From the IMG/VR virus record IMGVR_UViG_3300036806_000195, positions 1 to 59,712 of that record: 59,712 nt of DNA. One strand, 5' to 3'. This DNA is from a virus (lineage: Duplodnaviria; Caudoviricetes). The notes below the pieces were generated by a model. It was not told the origin of the DNA and searched no databases. It saw only the letters and a program-made list of their open reading frames with translations. Position numbers and translations under genes: made by a program. This document shows positions 4,256 to 50,995 of this stretch, piece by piece. Position 1 is the stretch's first letter. Every line of letters begins with the position of its first letter.

Positions 4256-5284
4256 ATGCAAGAACTGACTCCACAGGCCTCTACCGAAATATTCACCAAT
4301 TATAGCTACATGCTTGAAAATGGTGAGAATATTGACATATCTTTACCTGCTATCGTTGTAGAACACGATAGCCGTCTTGTAGGTTTGTGGCTCAGCAGCA
4401 AGTCCCTGAAGTCTCAACAGGCTTACGCTCATGAAATCGCTCGTTTCTATCGAATTGCACAAAAGCCTGTACAGCAGGTTATTATCGACGACTTGTATGC
4501 TTTCATGAAACATCCAGAAGTACAGAAATTAAAAGCATCTTCGCAATCACGCGCTCTTGCTGCCGTTAAAAGCCTGCTTACTTATGCCTCTAATGCTGCT
4601 GTTGGCGTTTTGCCCGTCAATGTAGGTGTGGCTATAAAACTTCCCAAAGTTGAGGATACGCTAGCTGAGCGCATTATGAGTGAGCAGAGCATTGATGACA
4701 TGATACGCAAAGAGTCCAATCCAAAGTATCAAGCAATGCTCGAATTGCTTTATTTTGGAGCTTTGCGCGTAGAGGAACTGTGTAACCTCAAATGGAGGCA
4801 TCTGCAAGAACGTGACCAGACAGGCCAAATTGCTGTCTACGGCAAGGGAAAACACACGCGCTATGTCCTGCTCGACAGCGACACATGGGCAAAGATTTGG
4901 GCTTTACGTGCTACCTCGACCAGGACTGGAGCTGAGGACTACGTGTTTAGCTCTCGACAGGCGAAAAAGCGGGCAGGGGAAGATGGAACCGAGATCAGGG
5001 ATTACAGGTTGGATGAGTCGCGAGTTCACCAGATCGTGAGAGCTGCAGCAGACAGAGCAGGCATAGCAATAGGAAAAGTATCACCTCACTGGATGAGACA
5101 TGCTCATGCGACTCATGCTCTAGACAATGGAGAGCCGATTAGTTTAGTGCAGCAGACGCTGGGACACAAGAGTGTCGCGACTACTGGCAGATATTTGCAT
5201 GTAAGGCCAAACGCGAGTACTGCTCTAGGATTAAGGTCAGCGCAAAAGAGAAGGAATGAGGGAAAGAATGCCGAGAGAGAGTAA
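4256..5284 (+). CDS. XerC/D-like tyrosine recombinase
   Basis: catalytic set LRVEE, GKG, HWMRH, LGH, TTGRY; core-binding N-domain. Confidence 0.93.
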   Translation: MQELTPQASTEIFTNYSYMLENGENIDISLPAIVVEHDSRLVGLWLSSKSLKSQQAYAHEIARFYRIAQKPVQQVIIDDLYAFMKHPEVQKLKASSQSRALAAVKSLLTYASNAAVGVLPVNVGVAIKLPKVEDTLAERIMSEQSIDDMIRKESNPKYQAMLELLYFGALRVEELCNLKWRHLQERDQTGQIAVYGKGKHTRYVLLDSDTWAKIWALRATSTRTGAEDYVFSSRQAKKRAGEDGTEIRDYRLDESRVHQIVRAAADRAGIAIGKVSPHWMRHAHATHALDNGEPISLVQQTLGHKSVATTGRYLHVRPNASTALGLRSAQKRRNEGKNAERE

Positions 5285-5666
5285 GTATAAATTCTGGGAC
5301 AAGCACAACAAAGTATGGGTAGGGCCATACACTTTGAAGCAATTAGCAGATGAGGATGCATTCAGCTCTGACAGGGAATGGAAAGCTATTTGCAGTAAGT
5401 GGGAGTGCTATGAGTCAGTTGAGTATACAGGGCTCAAAGACTGCAAAGGACAGGAGATATACGAGTCTGATATTGTGCGCATTAATCATCCTCACGATAT
5501 GACGGGAGACTTTACCAACGCGATTGGAGAAGTATTCTGGTGGAATGAGGAAGGCGGATGGTACCACGGGAATGGGAACGGCAGGCCACCTAAACGCATG
5601 CGGAAGTATGCAGAGGTGATAGGCAACATCTACGAGAACAGCGAGCTCTTGCAGAAGCAAGATTGA
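5268..5666 (+). CDS. YopX family protein
   Basis: EYTGLKDCKGQEIYESDIV and EVIGNIYENSELL. Confidence 0.85.
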   Translation: MPRESKYKFWDKHNKVWVGPYTLKQLADEDAFSSDREWKAICSKWECYESVEYTGLKDCKGQEIYESDIVRINHPHDMTGDFTNAIGEVFWWNEEGGWYHGNGNGRPPKRMRKYAEVIGNIYENSELLQKQD

Positions 5667-5672
5667 CGCAAG

Positions 5673-5795
5673 TGCTACACTGAGGATGCCATCGTAGTGT
5701 GAGTCCGCCGCCTGACTCGAGCAGGTTACAACGAGGGTGTGCAGTGAAAGCGCGGACAAGAGCCTCTCTTTGGGCAACTGAAGAGAGGCTCTTAT
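5673..5795 (+). ncRNA. Candidate structured small RNA with its own promoter and terminator
   Basis: TGCTACACT extended -10 at 5673; gtccgc/gcggac and gcctg/caggt stems; 13-bp hairpin 5758-5793. Confidence 0.45.
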
Positions 5796-5910
5796 TATGC
5801 CCAAATTCATCCTCACCAGAAGCTTCCTAGACCCTCTTACCTCGACACATTGGTACAAAGTACCACCTCTCGCATATGCCTCTCAATCGCACTCAGAGCT
5901 ATGTCAGTGT

Positions 5911-5966
5911 AAAATCTATAGAAATCTACAAGCTTTCACAGAAATATGTAGATTTCTATAGATTTT
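5911..5966. repeat. 20-bp perfect inverted repeat with 16-bp spacer upstream of the RNA cluster
   Basis: aaaatctatagaaatctaca / tgtagatttctatagatttt; TGTTATGCT -10-like element follows. Confidence 0.85.
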
Positions 5967-6061
5967 TCTGTTATGCTTGAGATGAATTCAGATCTTTTGA
6001 TCATAGGTCAGTGTAGCGCATGGGGGAGAGCGTTATGCTGACCTACCATACGAGTAGTTAT

Positions 6062-6146
6062 GTGCATGCCGCTGACGGTAAAGTGGATTACTCATCATGA
6101 AATAAGGGTGAGTACAGTCCTGTAGGTTCGACTCCTGCCATGCACA
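6062..6146 (+). ncRNA. tRNA-like RNA with non-canonical anticodon arm
   Basis: acceptor gtgcatg/catgcac, T-arm gtagg-ttcgact-cctgc, 8-bp stem with 10-nt loop in place of the anticodon arm. Confidence 0.6.
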
Positions 6147-6148
6147 CC

Positions 6149-6209
6149 GTCGCCTATCATGGTGACTCATTGGACGCAATGATGACAGGATCGTGACCTG
6201 CTAGGCGAC
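6149..6209 (+). ncRNA. Degenerate short tRNA-like element
   Basis: gtcgccta/taggcgac closing stem, tcattg/caatga hairpin, cagg-atcgtga-cctg T-like arm. Confidence 0.35.
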
Positions 6210-6222
6210 CGAACTAGATCAA

Positions 6223-6297
6223 GCATGAGTAGCTTAGTTGGTGAAAGCGCTGTCTTCATAAGACAGAGATGCGCGAGTTCAAATCTCGCCTCATGCA
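6223..6297 (+). tRNA. tRNA with CAT anticodon (Met or Ile2); no encoded CCA
   Basis: gcatgag/ctcatgc acceptor, ctgtc-ttCATaa-gacag, gcgag-ttcaaat-ctcgc. Confidence 0.85.
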
Positions 6298-6302
6298 CGT
6301 AT

Positions 6303-6374
6303 TCTCCCTTAGCTCAGTGGCAGAGCGCGAGCGTGAAGACCTCGGCGTCGGTGGTTCAATTCCATCAGGGAGAG
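6303..6374 (+). tRNA. tRNA-Phe(GAA), with a C-C mismatch closing the anticodon stem; no encoded CCA
   Basis: tctccct/agggaga acceptor, gctc-agtggca-gagc D-arm, loop gtGAAga, ggtgg-ttcaatt-ccatc. Confidence 0.75.
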
Positions 6375-6376
6375 CT

Positions 6377-6578
6377 TGGAGAGTGGCGGAAAGTGTGTAG
6401 ACGCTAAGAAAAGAATCCGGCTCAAGAAGTTCTCTGTTAGCCCGCTGTCAGGAGCATAGGCGTGGTTCCGAAAGGGTAAGGCCTGACGACAGAGAAGATC
6501 GCGAGTATCTGCGTAAGGAAAAATCAAGCTGCCGACGCCGGGTAGCAGCATGCAACGTTCAAATCGTTGCCTCTCCAC
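6377..6578 (+). ncRNA. ~200-nt tRNA-like RNA with a large structured insertion replacing the anticodon arm
   Basis: tggagag/ctctcca acceptor, Leu-like D region tggcggaaagtgtgtagacgc, T-arm gcaacg-ttcaaat-cgttgc; internal stems ttctctgtt/gacagagaa and gtcagg/cctgac. Confidence 0.65.
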
Positions 6579-6603
6579 TAAGACAGGAAGTAAGGATAGT
6601 TAA

Positions 6604-7098
6604 ATGTCATCAGGATATAATCAGAATTTATCATCAAATGCATTAGATGTTTGGAGAAAACAGTTATTGGGAAGTCGCAAGAAAAGAATATTCATGACTG
6701 TAGGACTGCCGGCATCAGGTAAGACCACATGGGCTAGAGAATATGTGACAAGCAATCTGAGTACCATCAGAGTGAATAAGGATGAAATAAGGCAAATGCT
6801 TCACAATGGTATCTACTCAGAGGGTCGCGAGGAATTCGTTATAGCGATTCGCAACTCTATCATTAGAACGGCTCTAGATGCTGGCTGTGATGTTATCGTT
6901 GATGATACGAACTTTAATCCTAAGCATCAAATGAGCATATCTGCAATAGCCCATGAATACGATGCTCTCGTAGAGATTAAAAACTTCACTGATGTTCCTT
7001 TGGAGGTATGTTTAGAGCGTAATCATGAGAGAGGATATCCTGTCCCCCAAGAGGCTATTGAACGAATGCATGAGCAGTATGTGAAGGTGGAAGACTGA
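6604..7098 (+). CDS. Polynucleotide 5'-kinase (T4 Pnk kinase domain / AAA_33-like)
   Basis: VGLPASGKTT, VNKDEIR, VIVDDTNF, PLEVCLERN..R..PVP..IERM. Confidence 0.85.
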   Translation: MSSGYNQNLSSNALDVWRKQLLGSRKKRIFMTVGLPASGKTTWAREYVTSNLSTIRVNKDEIRQMLHNGIYSEGREEFVIAIRNSIIRTALDAGCDVIVDDTNFNPKHQMSISAIAHEYDALVEIKNFTDVPLEVCLERNHERGYPVPQEAIERMHEQYVKVED

Positions 7099-7376
7099 TG
7101 ATATCAACTTTAGTAGCAACACGTGAGGGCCATTGGGGTGCCTATGCGCTCTCTGATGAGCAATTGCAGAAGAAAGAGCAGCCAACGTATCTATCGCCAT
7201 ATCTCTATCCTTCTGATGTGTGGCAGGCGATAAAGCCTCTGCTCAGTGAAGGTGAGAGTGATGGATAGGTTGCCAACGCGGTCGCATGGTGTGCAGAGAG
7301 ATAGCGTTGATGCGAGTATCGCCGGATTGCTGGTGTTCTTGGCTGGACTGGCCATCGGAATGATCTTTGAGAAAAG

Positions 7377-8405: not shown

Positions 8406-9973
8406 CATCAGTGTTGCAAGACCTAGTAGATAGCCGCAAAATAGCGAATGAAGTGCGTGAACGAGCTCGGGAGTCATTCAATGCTTTTATTCGTCTTGCA
8501 TGGGATGTTGTTGAGCCTGGTGTGCCTCTGCTATGGAATTGGCATATTGATGCAATTGCAGAGCATCTAGAGGCAGTATATAGCGGTGAGATTAATCGAT
8601 TTATCTGTAATATAGCACCTGGCCATGCAAAGTCAACGATCTTCAGTGTGATGTTTCCCTGCTGGATGTGGATCAAGAATCCTACCACGAGATGGCTTTG
8701 TGCCTCTCACAGCCTAGATTTAGCTATTCGGGATAGTCGCAATTGTCGTAATCTTATTGAGTCGGAATGGTTTCAAATGTGCTTTGGAGATATCTTTCAG
8801 CTCTCTGGAGACCAGAATGTAAAAAGCTTCTTTGAAAATAATCACCGTGGCTATCGAATGGCTCTCTCAGTTGGATCAAAGAGCGGAACAGGGAAGCGGG
8901 GCACACATCTGCTTATAGATGATCCAAATAACGCGGAAGCAGGTGAATCCGACATTGAAAAAACCATCAGGTGGTTTGGCAATACATGGATGAGTCGCAT
9001 CAATTCGTACGAAACAGGGGCCATGATAGTTGTTGGGCAGAGGGTAGGTGAAAAAGATCTTACAGGTCATATTCTTGAGCTTGGCGGTTGGGAACATCTT
9101 TGTTTGCCTGAAGAATTTGAGCCTGACCGTAAAAGTTTTACCTGTATCGTGTCCAACTCAAATAGTCCATATGCATGGAAAGGGTGTGACCCTCGCAAGG
9201 AAGAGGGTGAAGTGCTCTGGACTAATAAGTTCCCTAAAGAAATTCTCGATAACCTTAAGAAGTCAGTTGGAAGTTTCACGTATGCATCTCAGTTCCAGCA
9301 ACGCCCTGCACCCGCTGGAGGAGGACATTTCAAACAAGGCTGGTTTAGGTATTTCACCGAAGAGCGTGAGTACTATCAGCTAGAAACGTCTGAAGGCCTG
9401 AAGCGGATACTCAAGACATCCTGCTGGCTCTTTATGACTGAAGACCTAGCAATCTCGCAAAAAACCACAGCAGATTACACGGTCTTTTGCATTTGGGCCG
9501 TGACTCCTGAGAAAGACCTGTTACTCATAGCTCGACTGCGTGCACGCCTAGATAACCCCGAACAACAAAAGCAGACAGAACTATTCTATTATCGGTACCT
9601 CCCTGAATACATAAAAATAGAGTCAATAGCCTATCAATTGGCATTAGTGCAGCAATTGCGTTCACGTGGACTTCCAATCAAGCGATACAATCCAATCAAG
9701 GACAAAGTATCACGTGCTACCACAGCAGCCGTCTATTATGAGGCAGGTAAGGTATTCCATCCTAAACGTGCGAGTTGGCTTGTTGAGTGGGAAGATGAGC
9801 TTCTAGCTTTCCCGTTCGGAGCGCACGACGATCAAGTAGATAATGCGTCAATGGCATGTGATGAGATGGCTAGACCAAGAGGGGGTGGTATAGTTATCGA
9901 TACTGAGCCGGCAAAACAACACCAACAAGAACAACAGCAGTATGAAGAGGAGGATGAATTAGCATGGCGATAA
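8402..9973 (+). CDS. terL: Terminase large subunit
   Basis: NIAPGHAKST Walker A, LLIDDP Walker B, YASQFQQRP, C-terminal FPFGAHDDQVD nuclease motif. Confidence 0.95.
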   Translation: MTSVLQDLVDSRKIANEVRERARESFNAFIRLAWDVVEPGVPLLWNWHIDAIAEHLEAVYSGEINRFICNIAPGHAKSTIFSVMFPCWMWIKNPTTRWLCASHSLDLAIRDSRNCRNLIESEWFQMCFGDIFQLSGDQNVKSFFENNHRGYRMALSVGSKSGTGKRGTHLLIDDPNNAEAGESDIEKTIRWFGNTWMSRINSYETGAMIVVGQRVGEKDLTGHILELGGWEHLCLPEEFEPDRKSFTCIVSNSNSPYAWKGCDPRKEEGEVLWTNKFPKEILDNLKKSVGSFTYASQFQQRPAPAGGGHFKQGWFRYFTEEREYYQLETSEGLKRILKTSCWLFMTEDLAISQKTTADYTVFCIWAVTPEKDLLLIARLRARLDNPEQQKQTELFYYRYLPEYIKIESIAYQLALVQQLRSRGLPIKRYNPIKDKVSRATTAAVYYEAGKVFHPKRASWLVEWEDELLAFPFGAHDDQVDNASMACDEMARPRGGGIVIDTEPAKQHQQEQQQYEEEDELAWR

Positions 9974-12042
9974 GCTTCCCCAACTGGCTACGCATCCCTA
10001 AACGCCGTTCCCGTATAACAGAACGCCCATTCCAAGCACCTGCCTATCCCCCTAACTCTCATACCTCAGAGATGTATGAGCGTAATGTGGGACTCATCAA
10101 CTTTGAAGAGGCAACCAAGAGGAGTGCAAAAGCCCCTGTTTCCAGAGGGCCTAAAAACCTCTCTATGGCATGGGATGATACTTCTTTCGGGCTTGTGCGT
10201 GAGGGCTCTCAGGATGATAGGCAGAAGAAAGAGACCTGCTACTTGGTCTATTGCGGCAACCAGTGGGTTTCAGGGTGCGTAGATACGACTGCTGAGCGCA
10301 TGATATCTGGTGGCTGGGAGACTGTTGAGGTAGAACGAGGCAAGGGTAGTTCTAAAAATCAAGCAAGAGTAAAACAGCTATTTGACTTTGAGGATATAGA
10401 AGAGGATTTCTTACAGTTTTTCAACTCAATTGCAACGGATTTGCTTATATTTGGCGAAGCCTTTGCTGAGATGACATACGGCCCTGACGGCTTGGTAGCG
10501 AACCTCTACACAGTAGACTCTATAACTATGACGACACACTTTGATATGCATGGTGTCATCACAGGGTATACGCAACGCTTAGAGAAGAGTACTGAGGTTG
10601 TAAGATTTGAGCCGCGTGAGATTATCAGATGGTGGCTGCCAGATCCTAAATCGAAAAAGAAAGCGCTCTCTCCCATTGAAAAGCTGAAAGACCCAGTATT
10701 TTTAGATCGATCAATGGTGACGTGGGGTGAAAAGTTCTTTCGCCAAGGCGGGAAACCAAGTTACTGGGTAGGCATGGGGCCAGACTCCAATGAGGTTGAC
10801 GCAAGTAGATATATCAAGTGGTACAAAGAGAATTATACTGGCATGGAGAATGCACATATCCCTCCTGTGATGTATGGTGGGAGTGAGATACACGAATATG
10901 GTAAAGGTTCTATTGAGCTTGATTTTGATAAGAGCCAGGATAACCAGCGTGATAGAGCTTTGGTTGTTTATGGTGTTCCTCCAGCTATGTTGGGTATTAT
11001 CGAGAGTGGGAACATTGGAGGTGGAACGGGAGAATCTCAAAACAAGTCATTTATCTATAATAAGGTCATCCCATTAGAAAACCGTATTCTTGAGAAGCTG
11101 AATTATAGAGCAGTGAAACAAGGACTATTTATTGAGGACTGGAAAGTAAAGACGCGTCATGCGGATTATCGCGATGATAAGGATATTGCGGAAATTGAGA
11201 ACAAAGAGATCGGCAATGGGACGCTCACAAGAAATGAGGCACGCCAAGAACGAGGCCGTACAGAGGTACCAGGTGGCGACGTGCCAACTATCACTACTGG
11301 CAATGCCATCACTCCTGTAGCTCGCTTACAGACAATGGAGCAAGAGCAGACGCAGCATGCTCAACTCTCATTGCAAGGCGCTCAGCAGGCTATGCAGAAG
11401 CTTGCTCAGGGTGACCAGGATAACTCAGACAATCAAGACCAGCCTCCGGAGGATAAGCAACCTCAGCAGAAGGACAAGAATGCCAAGGCAAAAGAGGCTC
11501 TCTATCGCCAATGGCTAAGAGAAGATCTGATCGAAGCGAATAATACTGGGGTCATGGTAGCCTTCTTTTTGAAGCCTAGCGAGGCTCAAGCGCTGGTCTT
11601 AGACACTGGTGAGCCTATAGACGAGCTGCATTGCACGTTGGCATTCCTGGGGGACAAGAGTCAGCTAGGGGATACTGAGGCGCTCAAGAGAGCAGTGCAA
11701 ACCTATGCTGAGAATGCTTTTACTCTGCAAGGGTGCGTATCTGGCATAGGCCGCTTTACGTCAGTACCCGATGGTGAGCCTACTCCTGTCTATGCTTCGG
11801 TAGATGCTCCCGGGCTGCCTGAGTGGCGTCAAGATCTAGTGAAGACCTTGCAAGATGCTGGTTTCCCTCCTGATACCGCACACGGCTATACACCTCATAT
11901 AACCCTCTCGTATATCCCTGTTAGTGATCCTATGCCAATAGAGAGTGTTCCTGCTATTGATCTGAGCTTTGATCTGCTCTGGCTGGCAATTGGTGATGAG
12001 CGATATGCATATGCATTAGAGAGGGAAGAAGATAATGGCTAG
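9964..12042 (+). CDS. Portal protein with C-terminal 2H phosphoesterase domain
   Basis: DLLIFGEAF, VYGVPPAMLG, LTRNEARQERG portal motifs; Q/D-rich linker; LHCTLAF and PHITLSY HxT motifs. Confidence 0.88.
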   Translation: MAISFPNWLRIPKRRSRITERPFQAPAYPPNSHTSEMYERNVGLINFEEATKRSAKAPVSRGPKNLSMAWDDTSFGLVREGSQDDRQKKETCYLVYCGNQWVSGCVDTTAERMISGGWETVEVERGKGSSKNQARVKQLFDFEDIEEDFLQFFNSIATDLLIFGEAFAEMTYGPDGLVANLYTVDSITMTTHFDMHGVITGYTQRLEKSTEVVRFEPREIIRWWLPDPKSKKKALSPIEKLKDPVFLDRSMVTWGEKFFRQGGKPSYWVGMGPDSNEVDASRYIKWYKENYTGMENAHIPPVMYGGSEIHEYGKGSIELDFDKSQDNQRDRALVVYGVPPAMLGIIESGNIGGGTGESQNKSFIYNKVIPLENRILEKLNYRAVKQGLFIEDWKVKTRHADYRDDKDIAEIENKEIGNGTLTRNEARQERGRTEVPGGDVPTITTGNAITPVARLQTMEQEQTQHAQLSLQGAQQAMQKLAQGDQDNSDNQDQPPEDKQPQQKDKNAKAKEALYRQWLREDLIEANNTGVMVAFFLKPSEAQALVLDTGEPIDELHCTLAFLGDKSQLGDTEALKRAVQTYAENAFTLQGCVSGIGRFTSVPDGEPTPVYASVDAPGLPEWRQDLVKTLQDAGFPPDTAHGYTPHITLSYIPVSDPMPIESVPAIDLSFDLLWLAIGDERYAYALEREEDNG

Positions 12043-12580: not shown

Positions 12581-12669
12581 GGTTGCCTGTAGCTCAGTTG
12601 GTAGAGCGGCGTCGATATGCTTGACAGAGGACGCTCTGTCGTGGGTTCGAGTCCCACCAGGCAACCCCA
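12581..12669 (+). ncRNA. tRNA-like RNA with extended acceptor stem, CCA end and 16-nt anticodon loop
   Basis: ggttgcctg/caggcaacc+CCA, canonical D-arm gctc-agttggta-gagc, T-arm gtggg-ttcgagt-cccac; TGCTATACT promoter at 12563. Confidence 0.7.
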
Positions 12670-30305: not shown

Positions 30306-31541
30306 ATGGGTGTAACATTCTTCGTTCCAACTATTCCTTCTCCGCAGTACTGCTACTTACCGTCACAATGGGACACCGCGTGGAAGAACGCCAAAGCAAC
30401 GATTGCAAACCAAAAGGTAAGCGTTGTTGGCATTGGGGACTCAATTACGGCAGGGCAGGGATCAACAAATATCTTGTCTGCGTCGTGGTGGGCACTTCTC
30501 AGGTCCGCTATTCTTGCAGCCAATAGCAATTTGCTAGGCGGGGACCATTACGGCATGATCTACGGACCTGCCTCTATCGGCTATAATCCGGCAGGATCAC
30601 CCTTGACCGTTAATGGCGTGAAGGGGACGAATTACGACTGGAATTACAACGCTTTTAATTCGTCTGTGTCCAACACAACGGCGCAGACGCCTTTTATCTC
30701 AGTAACGCCATCGTATGCCGTCATAGGCTTTGATGTCCTCTATCTGGATCTCTCACCTGGCTCACCGGCTTGGACTTACAATATTGACGGCGGATCAAAC
30801 ACCAATGTTGTATGTAGTGGGGATGGAACAGCCGCGAACTCACAAATCAAAAAAGTCTCTATCACTGGTCTCGCGGCTGGCACGCATACACTCAATATTA
30901 ATGCATTTTCTAGCGGCTATCGATGCAATATTGTTGGCGTCACTGCCTATGCTGCAACGTCTGGCTTGTGCTTTGCCAATATGGGCAGCTCGGGTATGGG
31001 TCTGGTCAATGGCTATACCAGCTCGCAGAATAATCTGACCGACACAACGGGGTATCCGCCTGATAGGCTAGCGCTCTACCAAGGCTACACAGGGACAACA
31101 GCAAGCCCATCTGCATTATCAGGTCTCGGATTTCCAACGCAACCCGATTTAGCAATCATAGCATTTGGTGTAAATGATGCTTATAACGGTACAACGCTTA
31201 CACAGATGAGAGATAGTATTGCTCGGCTTGTGTGGTCTCTTCGCTACGGTAAATCCGACGCATGTAGCATCGTCATCGTGGCGATGTTTGCCCCTGATGG
31301 TACTGCCAGTACTTCGACGTCGGTCGCAAATAATGACTATGGCAGCGGAGCCACCGCCTATCGCGACTTGCGTGCAGCCATGCTCCAGGTCGCACAGGCC
31401 GAGATGTGCGCTTTCGTTGACGTACATGGACTTTTTGGACGTTTTGTGGTGACCAACGGATGGATCACAAGTACAAGTGATCTCCACCCAGCGCCAGCGG
31501 GGCATCTAAAAATAGCAAATTTGCTTGGAACGATTGTTTAA
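30306..31541 (+). CDS. SGNH/GDSL hydrolase (likely virion-associated esterase)
   Basis: GDSITAG, NMGSSG, FGVND, DLHP blocks. Confidence 0.85.
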   Translation: MGVTFFVPTIPSPQYCYLPSQWDTAWKNAKATIANQKVSVVGIGDSITAGQGSTNILSASWWALLRSAILAANSNLLGGDHYGMIYGPASIGYNPAGSPLTVNGVKGTNYDWNYNAFNSSVSNTTAQTPFISVTPSYAVIGFDVLYLDLSPGSPAWTYNIDGGSNTNVVCSGDGTAANSQIKKVSITGLAAGTHTLNINAFSSGYRCNIVGVTAYAATSGLCFANMGSSGMGLVNGYTSSQNNLTDTTGYPPDRLALYQGYTGTTASPSALSGLGFPTQPDLAIIAFGVNDAYNGTTLTQMRDSIARLVWSLRYGKSDACSIVIVAMFAPDGTASTSTSVANNDYGSGATAYRDLRAAMLQVAQAEMCAFVDVHGLFGRFVVTNGWITSTSDLHPAPAGHLKIANLLGTIV

Positions 31542-48736: not shown

Positions 48737-49486
48737 ATGCCACACTCATATGGTTGCTTGCCGGATCAGCCAGACCAGCGAGACCACAAGTACTCCGCGT
48801 CCTGGGAGCACCTAAACAACCTTCCACAAAGCGTTGACTTGCGCTCAGGATTGCCACCAGTAGAAGACCAGCTCGAACTTGGGAGCTGCACGAGCTTTGC
48901 AGCAGGCGCGGCTATCAGGTACGCACGCAAGAAACAAGGGCTGGCGGACTTCGTGACCTCTCACTTGTTTCTGTACTTCTGCTCGCGATTAAGGACTCAG
49001 AAGTACCTTGACACTGGTGCGACGCTCAGGGATACCATCAAAGCGGCTGCGCGGATGGGAGATTGCCCTGAGGCGGATTGGCCTTACGATATCTCAAAAT
49101 TTGCAAGCAAGCCACCCCAAGGCGCATACTTAAACGCCCTGCATGATCGAGCCATTAGCTACCAGAGAGTCACACGGTCCATCGCAGAGATGAAAGGCTG
49201 CTTAGCTTCTGGTTTACCGTTCCTGGCTGGTATAAGCGTCTACGAGTCATTTGAGAGCGATGAGGCGGCAAAGACAGGGATGATACCAATGCCTGGGAGA
49301 GATGAGCAGCTTCTAGGCGGACATGCGATTTTGATATGTGGATACCACGATGAAGATCAAAAGTGGCTTTTTCGCAATAGCTGGAGTTCTAGTTGGGCAG
49401 AAGAAGGATACGGGTTCCTGGATTACTCATATTTGCTCAATAAGGGGCTGGCGTCTGATTTTTGGGTTGTCAAAACTGTAGGCTAA
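48737..49486 (+). CDS. Papain-family (C1A) cysteine peptidase
   Basis: DQLELGSCTSFA (Q/C), GGHAILICGY (H), RNSWSSSW (N). Confidence 0.92.
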   Translation: MPHSYGCLPDQPDQRDHKYSASWEHLNNLPQSVDLRSGLPPVEDQLELGSCTSFAAGAAIRYARKKQGLADFVTSHLFLYFCSRLRTQKYLDTGATLRDTIKAAARMGDCPEADWPYDISKFASKPPQGAYLNALHDRAISYQRVTRSIAEMKGCLASGLPFLAGISVYESFESDEAAKTGMIPMPGRDEQLLGGHAILICGYHDEDQKWLFRNSWSSSWAEEGYGFLDYSYLLNKGLASDFWVVKTVG

Positions 49487-50197: not shown

Positions 50198-50995
50198 TCA
50201 CACTCTCCAATACTTTCTCGTCTCTAGCGACGGCTCTTCACTACTCCTCACAAGTCCGGCGTGCTGTAGCTGCGAGATAGCCGTGTAGGCCTTATTGAGG
50301 CGTGCTTGCCCTTGTGGCACTGAATGGTGCGCATGGAGCAATGACTCGACCTCTGCAAGCGTGTAGCCCTCTCTCTGCGATAGCATCGTGAGCACAGTAT
50401 CCGCCAGCTCATTCGACTTATTCAGCACAGCCACCACGTTCAGATCCAAGCCCTCAGTATTCCTCTCGAACTTGATATCCATCAGGCAAGACGGCGCTCC
50501 ATGTGTCATGCACTCGCGCTCAGCTATCACGGCATGCTCTCCAAAGTGCGTAGCTGCTCCTTCGACCATGCCGCGCATCAGAGGACAGAGCAGCCGGTGA
50601 TGGTCATATCTCAGTAAGAGCCTGCTATAGTCATCTGAGTAGGCACCAAATGGAAAGAGCGGCGTCTGGGCACGTGAGCCATTCATCTGCATGAGAAGAT
50701 CTCGGGCGGATTTTGCCCTCTCCAGGAGATATGCGCAATGCTGATCTATCCATTTGTTGTTGAGGAAATATTGACCGTACTCGCGCAGTAGCACAGGTGC
50801 AAAGATACCCGTGGCCACAGACACGCCTCGAACACCCTGGATGAAGAGCTCATCATTGTAGATGCGCGATGCTACGACCCACTTCGCCTCTATTCCCTCT
50901 AGCTCCTCTATCTTCTGCCTGTAAATGTCCCTCACACTACTTCCATACTTCTCTTCAAGATATTTCTCCCACATCGCTAAAATCAAACCATGCAT
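50198..50995 (-). CDS. H-NOX (HNOB)/V4R-like sensor domain fused to winged helix
   Basis: MHGLI...YLEEKYG, YND, LLREYGQYF, YxxxR, LCPLMRGMVEGAATHF, ECMTHGAPSC; AAGGAGG RBS. Confidence 0.8.
   Translation of the reverse strand: MHGLILAMWEKYLEEKYGSSVRDIYRQKIEELEGIEAKWVVASRIYNDELFIQGVRGVSVATGIFAPVLLREYGQYFLNNKWIDQHCAYLLERAKSARDLLMQMNGSRAQTPLFPFGAYSDDYSRLLLRYDHHRLLCPLMRGMVEGAATHFGEHAVIAERECMTHGAPSCLMDIKFERNTEGLDLNVVAVLNKSNELADTVLTMLSQREGYTLAEVESLLHAHHSVPQGQARLNKAYTAISQLQHAGLVRSSEEPSLETRKYWRV

What the first reader, a model, noticed from the sequence alone, without database searches (positions are those of the whole stretch)
6377..6578. ~200-nt RNA: tRNA shell carrying a large folded insert
A perfect 7-bp acceptor stem and T-arm enclose nested helices (6430-6438/6488-6496; 6447-6452/6482-6487), GAAA and GCGA tetraloop hairpins, an A-rich linker and a final hairpin (6528-6546). 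It is short for tmRNA, lacks the alanine acceptor identity, and shows no group I P7 core that I can see. It may be an unnamed ncRNA class.
Basis: partly seen in the sequence, partly recalled or inferred. Interest (0 to 1): 0.75.

Follow-up and report, generated by a model that had tools for sequence, protein, structure and literature searches.

The report
Phage tRNA shell carrying folded insert
A soil phage encodes a conserved RNA of about 200 nt that has the ends and elbow of a leucine-type tRNA but carries a folded domain of about 120 nt instead of a working anticodon arm, and it matches no described RNA family.

Summary
Window 6377-6577 has a perfect 7-bp acceptor helix, U8, a class II (Leu-type) D arm and a canonical T arm.

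It follows tRNA-Met and tRNA-Phe in a tRNA array of a 59.7-kb soil phage with terminal repeats.

Two full-length homologues (92-94% identical) were found in other metagenomes. Contigs from four further runs also align. Homology starts and stops at the acceptor ends, while the flanks differ.

Four base pairs change on both sides and stay paired. One GNRA hairpin changes from UCC-GAAA-GGG to UCUC-GUAA-GAGG. One natural variant replaces the inner 52 nt with a single base and keeps the enclosing helix.

Rfam 15 (E up to 10) and ARAGORN give no family. There is no G3-U70, no conserved tag frame and no canonical anticodon loop. No single in-silico excision (1188 tried) restores a detectable tRNA.

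Best reading: a tRNA-scaffolded, non-decoding structured RNA cut out by tRNA-processing enzymes. What the insert does is not known.

The family is small and its members are closely related, so most helices have no covariation test.

The parts
6377..6383 (+). Acceptor 5' strand (UGGAGAG). Either U6377 is position 1, or it is position -1 with G6378 as position 1.
   Evidence: Pairs perfectly with 6571-6577. Invariant in 3 of 3 homologues. T6376 and T6377 are conserved although the upstream DNA is unrelated.
6384..6404 (+). U8, G9 and a class II-type D arm (stem 6386-6388 / 6402-6404, loop 6389-6401).
   Evidence: Shares the blocks TGGCGGAA and GTAGACGC with E. coli leuV. The D loop is 2 nt shorter in L041 and in runs X5 and X6.
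6405..6429 (+). 5' A-rich linker.
   Evidence: No supported pairing. One substitution among 3 sequences (G6426C in L039). 6415-6421 could pair with 6537-6543 (7 bp, invariant, untested; my reading).
6430..6496 (+). Insert stalk Pa (6430-6438 / 6488-6496) carrying a three-way junction cap. The cap is Pb (6447-6452 / 6482-6487), hairpin H1 (6455-6457 / 6462-6464) and a GNRA hairpin (6467-6469 / 6474-6476, loop GAAA).
   Evidence: Pb has 3 compensatory pairs in L041. The GNRA hairpin is rebuilt as UCUC-GUAA-GAGG. H1 changes from U-G to C-G. A contig of run X6 replaces 6436-6487 with one T and keeps Pa (table 5). Pa itself never varies.
6497..6509 (+). GCGA (GNRA) tetraloop hairpin with bulged U6506.
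   Evidence: Read from the sequence. Invariant in 3 of 3, so there is no covariation test.
6510..6527 (+). 3' A-rich linker.
   Evidence: A6516G and G6517U in both homologues. No supported pairing.
6528..6549 (+). Last hairpin. It sits where either the long variable arm or the anticodon arm of a tRNA would be. Its 7-nt loop GACGCCG lacks U33.
   Evidence: Two registers are possible: 6528-6532 / 6545-6549 or 6528-6533 / 6541-6546. C6533A in L039 breaks a pair only in the second. Relaxed ARAGORN uses it as the anticodon arm once about 6405-6528 is removed.
6552..6570 (+). T arm: 6-bp stem with loop UUCAAAU.
   Evidence: Canonical G53, T54, T55, C56, A58 and C61 pattern (T-loop scan). Invariant in 3 of 3.
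6571..6577 (+). Acceptor 3' strand. A6577 is the last conserved base.
   Evidence: Position 6578 is C in the window and T in L039 and L041. Similarity ends there. Contigs of X4, X5 and X6 stop matching at 6577-6579.
6062..6375 (+). The rest of the tRNA array: a sub-threshold irregular tRNA (6062-6146), tRNA-Met (6223-6298) and tRNA-Phe (6303-6375).
   Evidence: One search gives the tRNA model 25.0 bits against a gathering score of 29 (E 0.0032). Relaxed ARAGORN calls 6062-6148 a tRNA-Asp(AUC).

Best explanation
I read this as a natural 'tRNA-scaffold' RNA. It is a non-decoding structured ncRNA, descended from a class II (Leu-type) tRNA gene, in which the anticodon region is replaced or interrupted by a folded domain of about 120 nt.

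Inferred steps (none shown experimentally):
- It is transcribed with the neighbouring tRNA genes or the operon.
- RNase P cuts it out at the 5' end, with a conserved U at -1.
- tRNA 3' processing trims it at or next to A6577, and CCA is added.
- The D-loop/T-loop elbow, acceptor helix and T arm give it the stability of a tRNA.

The insert comprises the Pa stalk with an optional three-way-junction cap, the GCGA hairpin, two A-rich single strands and the last hairpin. I take the insert to be the working part, most likely binding a host or phage protein in trans as a sponge, decoy or adaptor.

What the comparisons show: a conserved discrete unit, tRNA-like ends, and a folded insert under structural selection.
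For: - It is placed as the next gene in a tRNA array, 2 nt after tRNA-Phe. In run X4 a tRNA-Glu-like start follows it 9 nt later (compared with L013).
- The shell is tRNA-like: a 7-bp acceptor helix, U8, a Leu-type D arm sharing sequence blocks with E. coli leuV, and a canonical T loop.
- It is a unit. L039 (94%) and L041 (92%) align from 6376/6377 to 6577, with unrelated upstream DNA. Contigs of X4-X7 break at the same ends.
- The structure is under selection: 4 pairs change on both sides, 140 of 140 cells are paired, and 5 of 500 shuffles reach this. A GNRA loop is kept through a rebuilt stem. One variant swaps the 52-nt cap for a single base.
- It does not code for protein. No frame on either strand is kept open in the same register in all three sequences.
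- It does not decode. No loop has the U33/R37 pattern, ARAGORN calls no tRNA, and none of 1188 single excisions gives a tRNA at default settings.
- An engineered precedent exists. RNAs placed in the anticodon position of a tRNA scaffold are processed and stabilised in E. coli (PMC3753655, passages read).
Against: - There is no RNA evidence. No listed run holding the sequence is on record as RNA, so expression, ends and CCA addition are all inferred.
- Only 3 full-length sequences are in hand, at 92% identity or more. The acceptor, D, Pa, GCGA, last-hairpin and T helices never vary and so are untested by covariation.
- The single-sequence fold is only z = -2.3.
- No partner was found. The adjacent polynucleotide kinase gene is absent from L039 and L041. 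The Pfam scan of 85 ORFs found no Ro, SmpB, RNA ligase or reverse transcriptase.
- The acceptor plus T stack is 13 bp if U6377-A6577 is kept, which is one more than in ordinary tRNAs and might affect the enzymes I invoke.
- The 52-nt cap is dispensable in one variant, so part of the 'functional insert' may be ornament.
Confidence: 0.55

Rival explanations
1. It is an aminoacylated tRNA-like RNA. The shell would be CCA-tailed and charged, most plausibly with leucine. It would then act on the ribosome like tmRNA, serve as an aminoacyl donor, or act as a sink for the synthetase.
For: - The D arm is Leu-type, with A14 and A15, and U6551 is in position for an A15-U48 pair.
- Counting 13 nt from the T loop puts A6577 at position 73. 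A6577 is also the last conserved base.
- E. coli LeuRS needs A73 and the D/T tertiary contacts, not the anticodon or variable arm. Truncated tRNA-Leu lacking both arms is still charged (PMC9976931, passages read).
- In this register the acceptor plus T stack is 6+6 = 12 bp.
Against: - The window's D loop has GUGUG rather than the GG pair said to be essential (PMC9976931).
- If U6377-A6577 is a real pair, the discriminator is 6578. That base is C or U and varies, and C73 abolishes leucylation.
- G3-U70 is absent, no pseudoknots were found, and the only Ala-initiated frame (from 6403) changes length and ending in every variant.
- No SmpB-like gene was found.
Confidence: 0.15
2. It is an interrupted tRNA gene. 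An intron or inserted element would be removed to give a working tRNA, for example Leu(CAA) using CUCAAG at 6421-6426 and the stem 6416-6420 / 6538-6542.
For: - The shell is complete.
- A CUCAAG motif sits next to a possible 5-7 bp helix (6415-6421 with 6537-6543; my reading).
- GNRA hairpins are typical of self-folding introns (established knowledge).
Against: - ARAGORN with introns of 0-300 nt allowed finds nothing.
- None of 1188 single-segment removals gives a tRNA at default settings, while the tRNA-Phe control was found.
- At the relaxed setting, removing 6427-6536 gives a Leu(CAA) call that does not use the real 5' end.
- That model leaves 11 nt between the D stem and the anticodon stem. 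It also puts C at position 37 in L039 (G6426C).
- Rfam finds no group I or group II intron and no self-cleaving ribozyme at E up to 10.
- The insert is about 110-125 nt. From memory, the smallest natural group I introns are about 200 nt.
Confidence: 0.07
3. It is a decaying tRNA gene or an att/recombination relic. On this view the conserved 3' end is the phage attachment core copied from a host tRNA, and the rest is carried along without its own function.
For: - A tyrosine integrase gene lies 1.1 kb upstream at 4256-5284.
- The 3' 60 nt (6518-6577) has one change in three sequences, while the middle has many.
- One X7 contig shares only 6551-6583 and is unrelated before that, which looks like a breakpoint in the T arm (tables 7 and 8).
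Against: - The 5' acceptor strand and D arm are also kept, and homology starts exactly there. An att core would not need them.
- Compensatory changes and a rebuilt GNRA hairpin show selection on RNA structure in the middle.
- The T arm plus acceptor 26-mer, with up to 3 mismatches, was not found in 0 of 5 and 0 of 401 sampled genomes. This is a thin sample.
- The reading is not exclusive: a functional RNA gene can also hold attP.
Confidence: 0.12
4. It is a cis-acting processing signal. The tRNA-like fold would serve only to attract RNase P and so set the 5' end of the downstream mRNA.
For: - In all three loci a gene starts 14-26 nt after the element.
- It lies at the head of the small-gene, TerS and TerL block.
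Against: - The downstream genes differ: a kinase in the window, and small ORFs in L039 and L041.
- The conserved 120-nt insert is unnecessary for that role.
- In X4 the next gene is a tRNA.
Confidence: 0.1

Closest known systems
tmRNA (SsrA)
   Same: It has tRNA-like acceptor and T arms formed by the two ends, with a large structured insert where the anticodon arm would be. Some phages encode one (the phage point is recalled).
   Different: tmRNA has a G3-U70 alanine identity pair; this RNA has none. It has no conserved tag frame and no pseudoknots were found. It has a true D stem. It is about 200 nt against roughly 260-400 nt (recalled). ARAGORN and Rfam do not call it.
Engineered tRNA scaffold (Ponchon and Dardel; PMC3753655, passages read)
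   Same: The acceptor, T and D arms are kept and foreign structured RNA sits in the anticodon position. The shell recruits the processing enzymes and protects the cargo.
   Different: That is a laboratory design. Here the cargo joins through long A-rich single strands rather than a continuous hairpin, and an extra hairpin precedes the T arm.
Class II tRNA-Leu (E. coli leuV, L068)
   Same: A 7-nt 5' strand, then U8-G9, a 3-bp D stem with a G13/A22 mismatch, and the blocks TGGCGGAA and GTAGACGC. A hairpin lies just before the T arm, where the long variable arm sits.
   Different: There is no anticodon stem-loop. About 122 nt lie between the D stem and that hairpin. The T stem is 6 bp. The D loop is 2 nt longer in the window.
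Irregular and allo-tRNAs of soil bacteria and phages (8/4 and 9/3; PMC5389517, abstract and passages read)
   Same: Non-standard acceptor/T stem lengths. They occur in phage tRNA clusters and soil polycistrons, and some were proposed to be regulatory ncRNAs.
   Different: Those are 80-95 nt with anticodon arms and 12-bp stacks. This one is about 200 nt, has a 7/6 or 6/6 stack, and has no anticodon loop.
Bacterial Y RNA-like YrlA (RF02553)
   Same: An ncRNA with a tRNA-mimicking module. Some are linked to RNA repair genes (PMC4201824, search listing and start of abstract only).
   Different: From memory, in YrlA the RNA ends form the Ro-binding stem and the tRNA-like part is internal. The only Rfam YrlA match (E 6.6) lies on the tRNA-Met/Phe junction, not on the element. 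Pfam found no TROVE/Ro gene.
T4 stable RNAs C and D (species 1 and 2) in the T4 tRNA cluster (recalled; no text was found)
   Same: Small stable RNAs of unknown function encoded among phage tRNA genes and matured by RNase P.
   Different: Those are about 120-140 nt (recalled).

Membership tests
tRNA (RF00005) | Acceptor stem, D arm and T arm with a canonical T loop | tested here: met
tRNA (RF00005) | Anticodon stem with a 7-nt loop (U33, purine 37) at the standard place | tested here: not met
   The only 7-nt loop besides the T loop is GACGCCG at 6534-6540, which has A at position 33 and C at position 37.
tRNA (RF00005) | Scores as a tRNA with the family model or ARAGORN | tested here: not met
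   No tRNA hit on 6377-6578 even at E up to 10. ARAGORN at default and with introns gives none.
tmRNA | G3-U70 alanine identity pair | tested here: not met
   The pair is G3-C70 in one register and A3-U70 in the other.
tmRNA | Conserved tag reading frame with a resume codon | tested here: not met
   The frame from GCU at 6403 ends differently in the window, L039 and L041. By my own reading of the junction reported, it also ends differently in the X6 variant. The changes follow the RNA helices.
tmRNA | Pseudoknots, and detection by ARAGORN or Rfam | tested here: not met
   No call at default settings. At the relaxed threshold only 'permuted' artefacts appear. Rfam gives none.
Group I intron in a tRNA gene | P3-P7 catalytic core matching the Rfam model, and excision that restores a tRNA | tested here: not met
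   No Rfam match at E up to 10. None of 1188 excisions gives a tRNA.
Class II tRNA-Leu | Leu-type D arm (3-bp stem, GAA...GUAGA loop) | tested here: met
   Alignment with leuV.
Class II tRNA-Leu | Discriminator A73 | tested here: inconclusive
   It is A6577 if position 1 is G6378. It is C or U at 6578 if U6377-A6577 is pair 1-72. The mature ends are unknown.
Class II tRNA-Leu | Leucine anticodon and aminoacylation | not testable with these tools
   There is no anticodon arm. Charging needs a bench assay.
YrlA / Y RNA-like | Ro-binding terminal stem, a Ro60 gene nearby, and a match to the Rfam model | tested here: not met
   No match on the element. No TROVE domain in the 85 ORFs scanned.

The most novel reading that the evidence does not exclude
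A second kind of aminoacylated, non-decoding tRNA-like RNA after tmRNA. On this reading the mature RNA starts at G6378 and ends with A6577 plus CCA. It has a 6/6 acceptor/T stack (12 bp) and is leucylated by the host LeuRS, which ignores the anticodon arm. It would deliver its folded insert, or its leucine, to the translation machinery or to a defence system during infection.
Probability: 0.15. Interest if true: 0.85.

Novelty: new variant of a known kind. Interest (0 to 1): 0.62.

Why it matters
If the RNA is real and processed as inferred, phages use in nature the same trick that RNA engineers invented: the tRNA scaffold. That would add a new class to the short list of tRNA-shaped ncRNAs that do something other than decode.

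It also sits in a phage that carries several irregular tRNAs, namely Asp(AUC)-like and His(AUG)-like genes with long extra arms, plus polynucleotide kinase and 2H phosphoesterase domains. This is the gene set expected in conflicts over tRNA cleavage and repair.

The element is short, sharply bounded and easy to express, so its ends, charging and partners are directly testable.

Tried and rejected
- Known families: Rfam at the gathering score and at E up to 10 on 6150-6800 gave nothing on the element.
- ARAGORN at default, with introns allowed, in tmRNA mode and at relaxed thresholds gave only a weak 'tRNA-Ala cgc' at 6503-6576 and 'permuted tmRNA' artefacts.
- blastn against 50,697 phage records matched only tRNA-Phe, in one Vibrio phage.
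- Relatives of the kinase (4 loci) and of TerL (32 loci) carry no homologue. The closest TerL relative with upstream DNA (L013, 89%) lacks it.
- Model R1 found only its 3 training sequences in 41 sources. In 26 further loci it gave only short partial matches around the typed 18-mer, at E 0.11-2.4. It found nothing in L069 or L070 and nothing in 17 whole related virus records.
- Exact-pattern scans of viral contigs gave no hit or chance hits only.
- Exact-pattern scan of metagenome contigs gave 4 loci, 2 true and 2 chance hits in coding DNA.
- Exact-pattern scan of genome contigs gave 25 loci, all chance.
- The L039 90-aa neighbour has no relative in viral contigs.
- Host tRNA or attB test: the 26-mer with up to 3 mismatches was found in 0 of 5 and 0 of 401 sampled genomes.
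- No antisense target of 13 nt or more exists in the phage. There is one 12-mer, which is about the number expected by chance.
- The promoter and terminator scan of 5600-7200 found 4 promoter-like sites against 2.5 expected, and 0 terminators.
- No RNA holder is listed among the sequencing runs.
- The link to the AAA_33 / polynucleotide kinase gene is rejected as a conserved feature. The gene is an insertion relative to L039 and L041.
- An antisense ORF was considered and rejected. Open frames on the minus strand switch register between homologues.
- I read the X7 contig's upstream end as a possible tRNA anticodon arm and then dropped that reading. Its 21-mer occurs inside coding DNA in L071.
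- Literature: 3 searches found no description. Supplementary tables of PMC10690425 (10,006 candidate viral RNAs) and supplementary figures of PMC5389517 could not be opened and may bear on novelty.

Full report
**What the window is.** The window is a complete IMG/VR virus record of 59,712 bp with direct terminal repeats and 46.8% G+C. It carries RusA, a tyrosine integrase, YopX, terminase, portal, tape measure, an amidase, a sigma factor and a Dam methylase. It is found in soil metagenome runs. Its terminase is at most 36.5% identical to those of Paracoccus, Roseobacter, Aeromonas and Rhizobium phages.

**The observation.**
- A 7-bp acceptor helix, 6377-6383 / 6571-6577.
- A T arm, 6552-6570, with a canonical UUCAAAU loop.
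- Helices 6430-6438 / 6488-6496 and 6447-6452 / 6482-6487.
- GAAA (6467-6476) and GCGA (6497-6509) hairpins.
- A-rich linkers and a last hairpin from 6528.

U8, G9 and a D arm (6384-6404) share the blocks TGGCGGAA and GTAGACGC with E. coli leuV, a class II tRNA-Leu.

The element begins 2 nt after tRNA-Phe. That gene follows tRNA-Met and a sub-threshold irregular tRNA at 6062-6146. So the element occupies the slot of a further tRNA gene.

**Is it more than chance?**
- The single-sequence fold is only moderately unusual: MFE -68 kcal/mol, z = -2.30, and 1 of 200 shuffles folds as well.
- Laying contigs of four other soil and rhizosphere runs on 6150-6750 gave pieces that match from 6376 to 6577-6579 and then run into unrelated sequence on both sides.
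- One metagenome pattern scan returned 4 loci. Two are chance matches in coding DNA. Two are full-length homologues, L039 at 94% and L041 at 92%.
- In the alignment, homology starts at T6376/T6377 and ends at A6577.
- The upstream DNA is a tRNA in the window, the end of an ORF in L039 and a hairpin in L041. In run X4 a tRNA-Glu-like start follows the element.

**Structure.** Most differences among the three sequences fall in loops or are compensatory.
- Helix 6447-6452 / 6482-6487 has three double changes in L041: GC to AU, UA to CG, and GC to UA.
- The GNRA hairpin UCC-GAAA-GGG becomes UCUC-GUAA-GAGG in L039 and L041.
- Hairpin 6455-6457 / 6462-6464 changes from U-G to C-G.
- In my nine-helix model, 140 of 140 cells pair. 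Four pairs change on both sides. Only 5 of 500 column shuffles reach that, and none of the six slid registers does.
- A contig of run X6 replaces 6436-6487 with a single T. This leaves the outer helix as a short hairpin, which is what a modular stalk-and-cap domain predicts (tables 5 and 5c; shorter side 25 nt, one contig).

The acceptor, D, outer (Pa), GCGA, last-hairpin and T helices never vary, so covariation says nothing about them. The MFE pairings of the linkers are not supported. G6426C in L039 breaks one of them. Two candidate long-range helices are only my reading of the sequence: 6415-6421 with 6537-6543, and 6440-6444 with 6539-6543.

**What it is not.**
- Known families: Rfam 15 has no match at gathering scores or at E up to 10.
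- tmRNA: ARAGORN finds none. G3-U70 is absent. The only Ala-initiated frame changes length and end in each variant.
- Interrupted tRNA: ARAGORN with introns finds nothing. None of 1188 single-segment removals gives a tRNA at default settings, with tRNA-Phe as a positive control. At a relaxed threshold, removing about 6405-6528 gives a weak cloverleaf that uses the last hairpin as its anticodon arm. That hairpin's loop, GACGCCG, has neither U33 nor a purine at position 37.
- Protein-coding: no frame is kept in the same register.
- Antisense regulator of the phage: no antisense target of 13 nt or more exists in it.

**Context.**
- The downstream gene (6604-7098) is the kinase half of a polynucleotide kinase: Pfam AAA_33 at 5e-23 and PHROG 505 at 6e-33.
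- That gene is absent from L039 and L041. The gene following the element in L039, and the second gene downstream in L041 (after a 74-aa ORF), has its homologue at 7098-7289 in the window. So the kinase link is not conserved.
- The general position is conserved. The element lies ahead of the TerS-like gene in the window and L039, and downstream of a YopX-like gene in the window and L041.
- No Ro, SmpB, RNA ligase of the Rnl or RtcB type, or reverse transcriptase was seen in the 85 ORFs scanned.

**Which register?**
- Counting from the T loop, the 13 nt to A6577 equal 5 + 7 + 1. That makes A6577 position 73.
- By alignment with leuV, the 5' strand is 7 nt starting at U6377.
- The two halves disagree by one nucleotide. 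C6570 pairs with G6552 and makes a 6-bp T stem.
- So the shell is either 7/6 (13 bp, discriminator C or U at 6578) or 6/6 (12 bp, with G6378 as +1, U6377 as -1 and A6577 as the discriminator).
- This matters because E. coli LeuRS needs A73 and the D/T elbow but not the anticodon or variable arm. Truncated tRNA-Leu lacking both arms is still charged (PMC9976931, passages).

**Most likely mechanism.** I favour a natural tRNA scaffold. The shell recruits RNase P, 3' trimming and CCA addition, and protects the RNA, as in the engineered system (PMC3753655, passages). The insert acts in trans, probably on a protein. I put confidence at about 0.55 for this general reading. The partner is unknown.

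The rivals are a leucylated tmRNA-like actor (0.15), a relic or att-associated tRNA gene (0.12), a cis-acting processing signal (0.10) and a spliced tRNA (0.07).

- Model R1 and exact patterns found no further member in any of the following: 67 loci; loci L069 and L070; 17 whole related virus records; IMG/VR; one representative genome for each of 185,579 species, searched by one 18-mer.
- The family is therefore rare and shallow as far as these tools can see.
- No RNA run was listed, so expression is untested.
- Three literature searches found no description. Supplements that might list it could not be opened.

Noticed in passing
window 6062-6146: An extra irregular tRNA opens the array. The Rfam tRNA model gives it 25.0 bits against a gathering score of 29 (E 0.0032). 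ARAGORN calls it only at a relaxed threshold, as an 87-nt tRNA-Asp(AUC) with a long extra arm. The MFE fold shows an 8-bp stem with a 10-nt loop in the anticodon position.
   Followed up: partly
window 12582-12669: An 88-nt tRNA-His(AUG) with CCA encoded, an 8-bp acceptor helix and 9 extra nt in the anticodon/variable region. Rfam shows 24 nt where the model has 15. ARAGORN draws a long variable arm instead. Both this gene and the Asp-like one have A34 where G34/Q34 is usual. From memory, that recalls phage tRNAs that escape anticodon nucleases.
   Followed up: partly
window 9964-12042 (residues about 540-692): The portal protein carries a C-terminal 2H / LigT-like phosphoesterase domain: Pfam 2_5_RNA_ligase2 at 7e-06 and PHROG 14859 'RNA ligase' at 1.4e-22. 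It could be an RNA-repair enzyme or a packaged enzyme that degrades cyclic nucleotides. The second idea is my inference.
   Followed up: no
window 6604-7098: A kinase-only polynucleotide kinase gene. It matches positions 2-142 of the 295-position PHROG 505 profile and has no phosphatase half. It is inserted between the element and the conserved small gene.
   Followed up: partly
window 7098-7289: The homologue of the L041 126-aa protein aligns at 78% over 64 residues, past the stop of the 56-aa ORF 7098-7268. The gene may therefore be truncated or interrupted here.
   Followed up: no
L013 1051-1179: In the closest TerL relative with upstream DNA (L013, 89%), an odd tRNA-like gene stands before two tRNA-Glu genes. 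It has a 6-bp T stem, an A73-CCA end and two possible 5' strands, one of which gives G3-U70. ARAGORN calls it only at a relaxed threshold, as Val(AAC) at 1101-1178. It is not homologous to the element.
   Followed up: partly
run X7, contig 11, on window 6551-6583: This contig shares only the last 27 nt of the element plus 6 nt downstream. Unrelated sequence, probably coding, precedes that stretch. It may mark a recombination or att-type breakpoint in the T arm.
   Followed up: partly
window 6150-6210: An 8-bp inverted repeat (GTCGCCTA / TAGGCGAC) between the irregular tRNA and tRNA-Met encloses an AUGAUGA motif. Rfam gives only chance-level C/D-box matches, at E 2-7.
   Followed up: no
window 50198-50995 (-), 48737-49486, 30306-31541: The phage carries a haem-NO-binding (HNOB) domain protein, a papain-family peptidase and a GDSL lipase-domain protein.
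   Followed up: no
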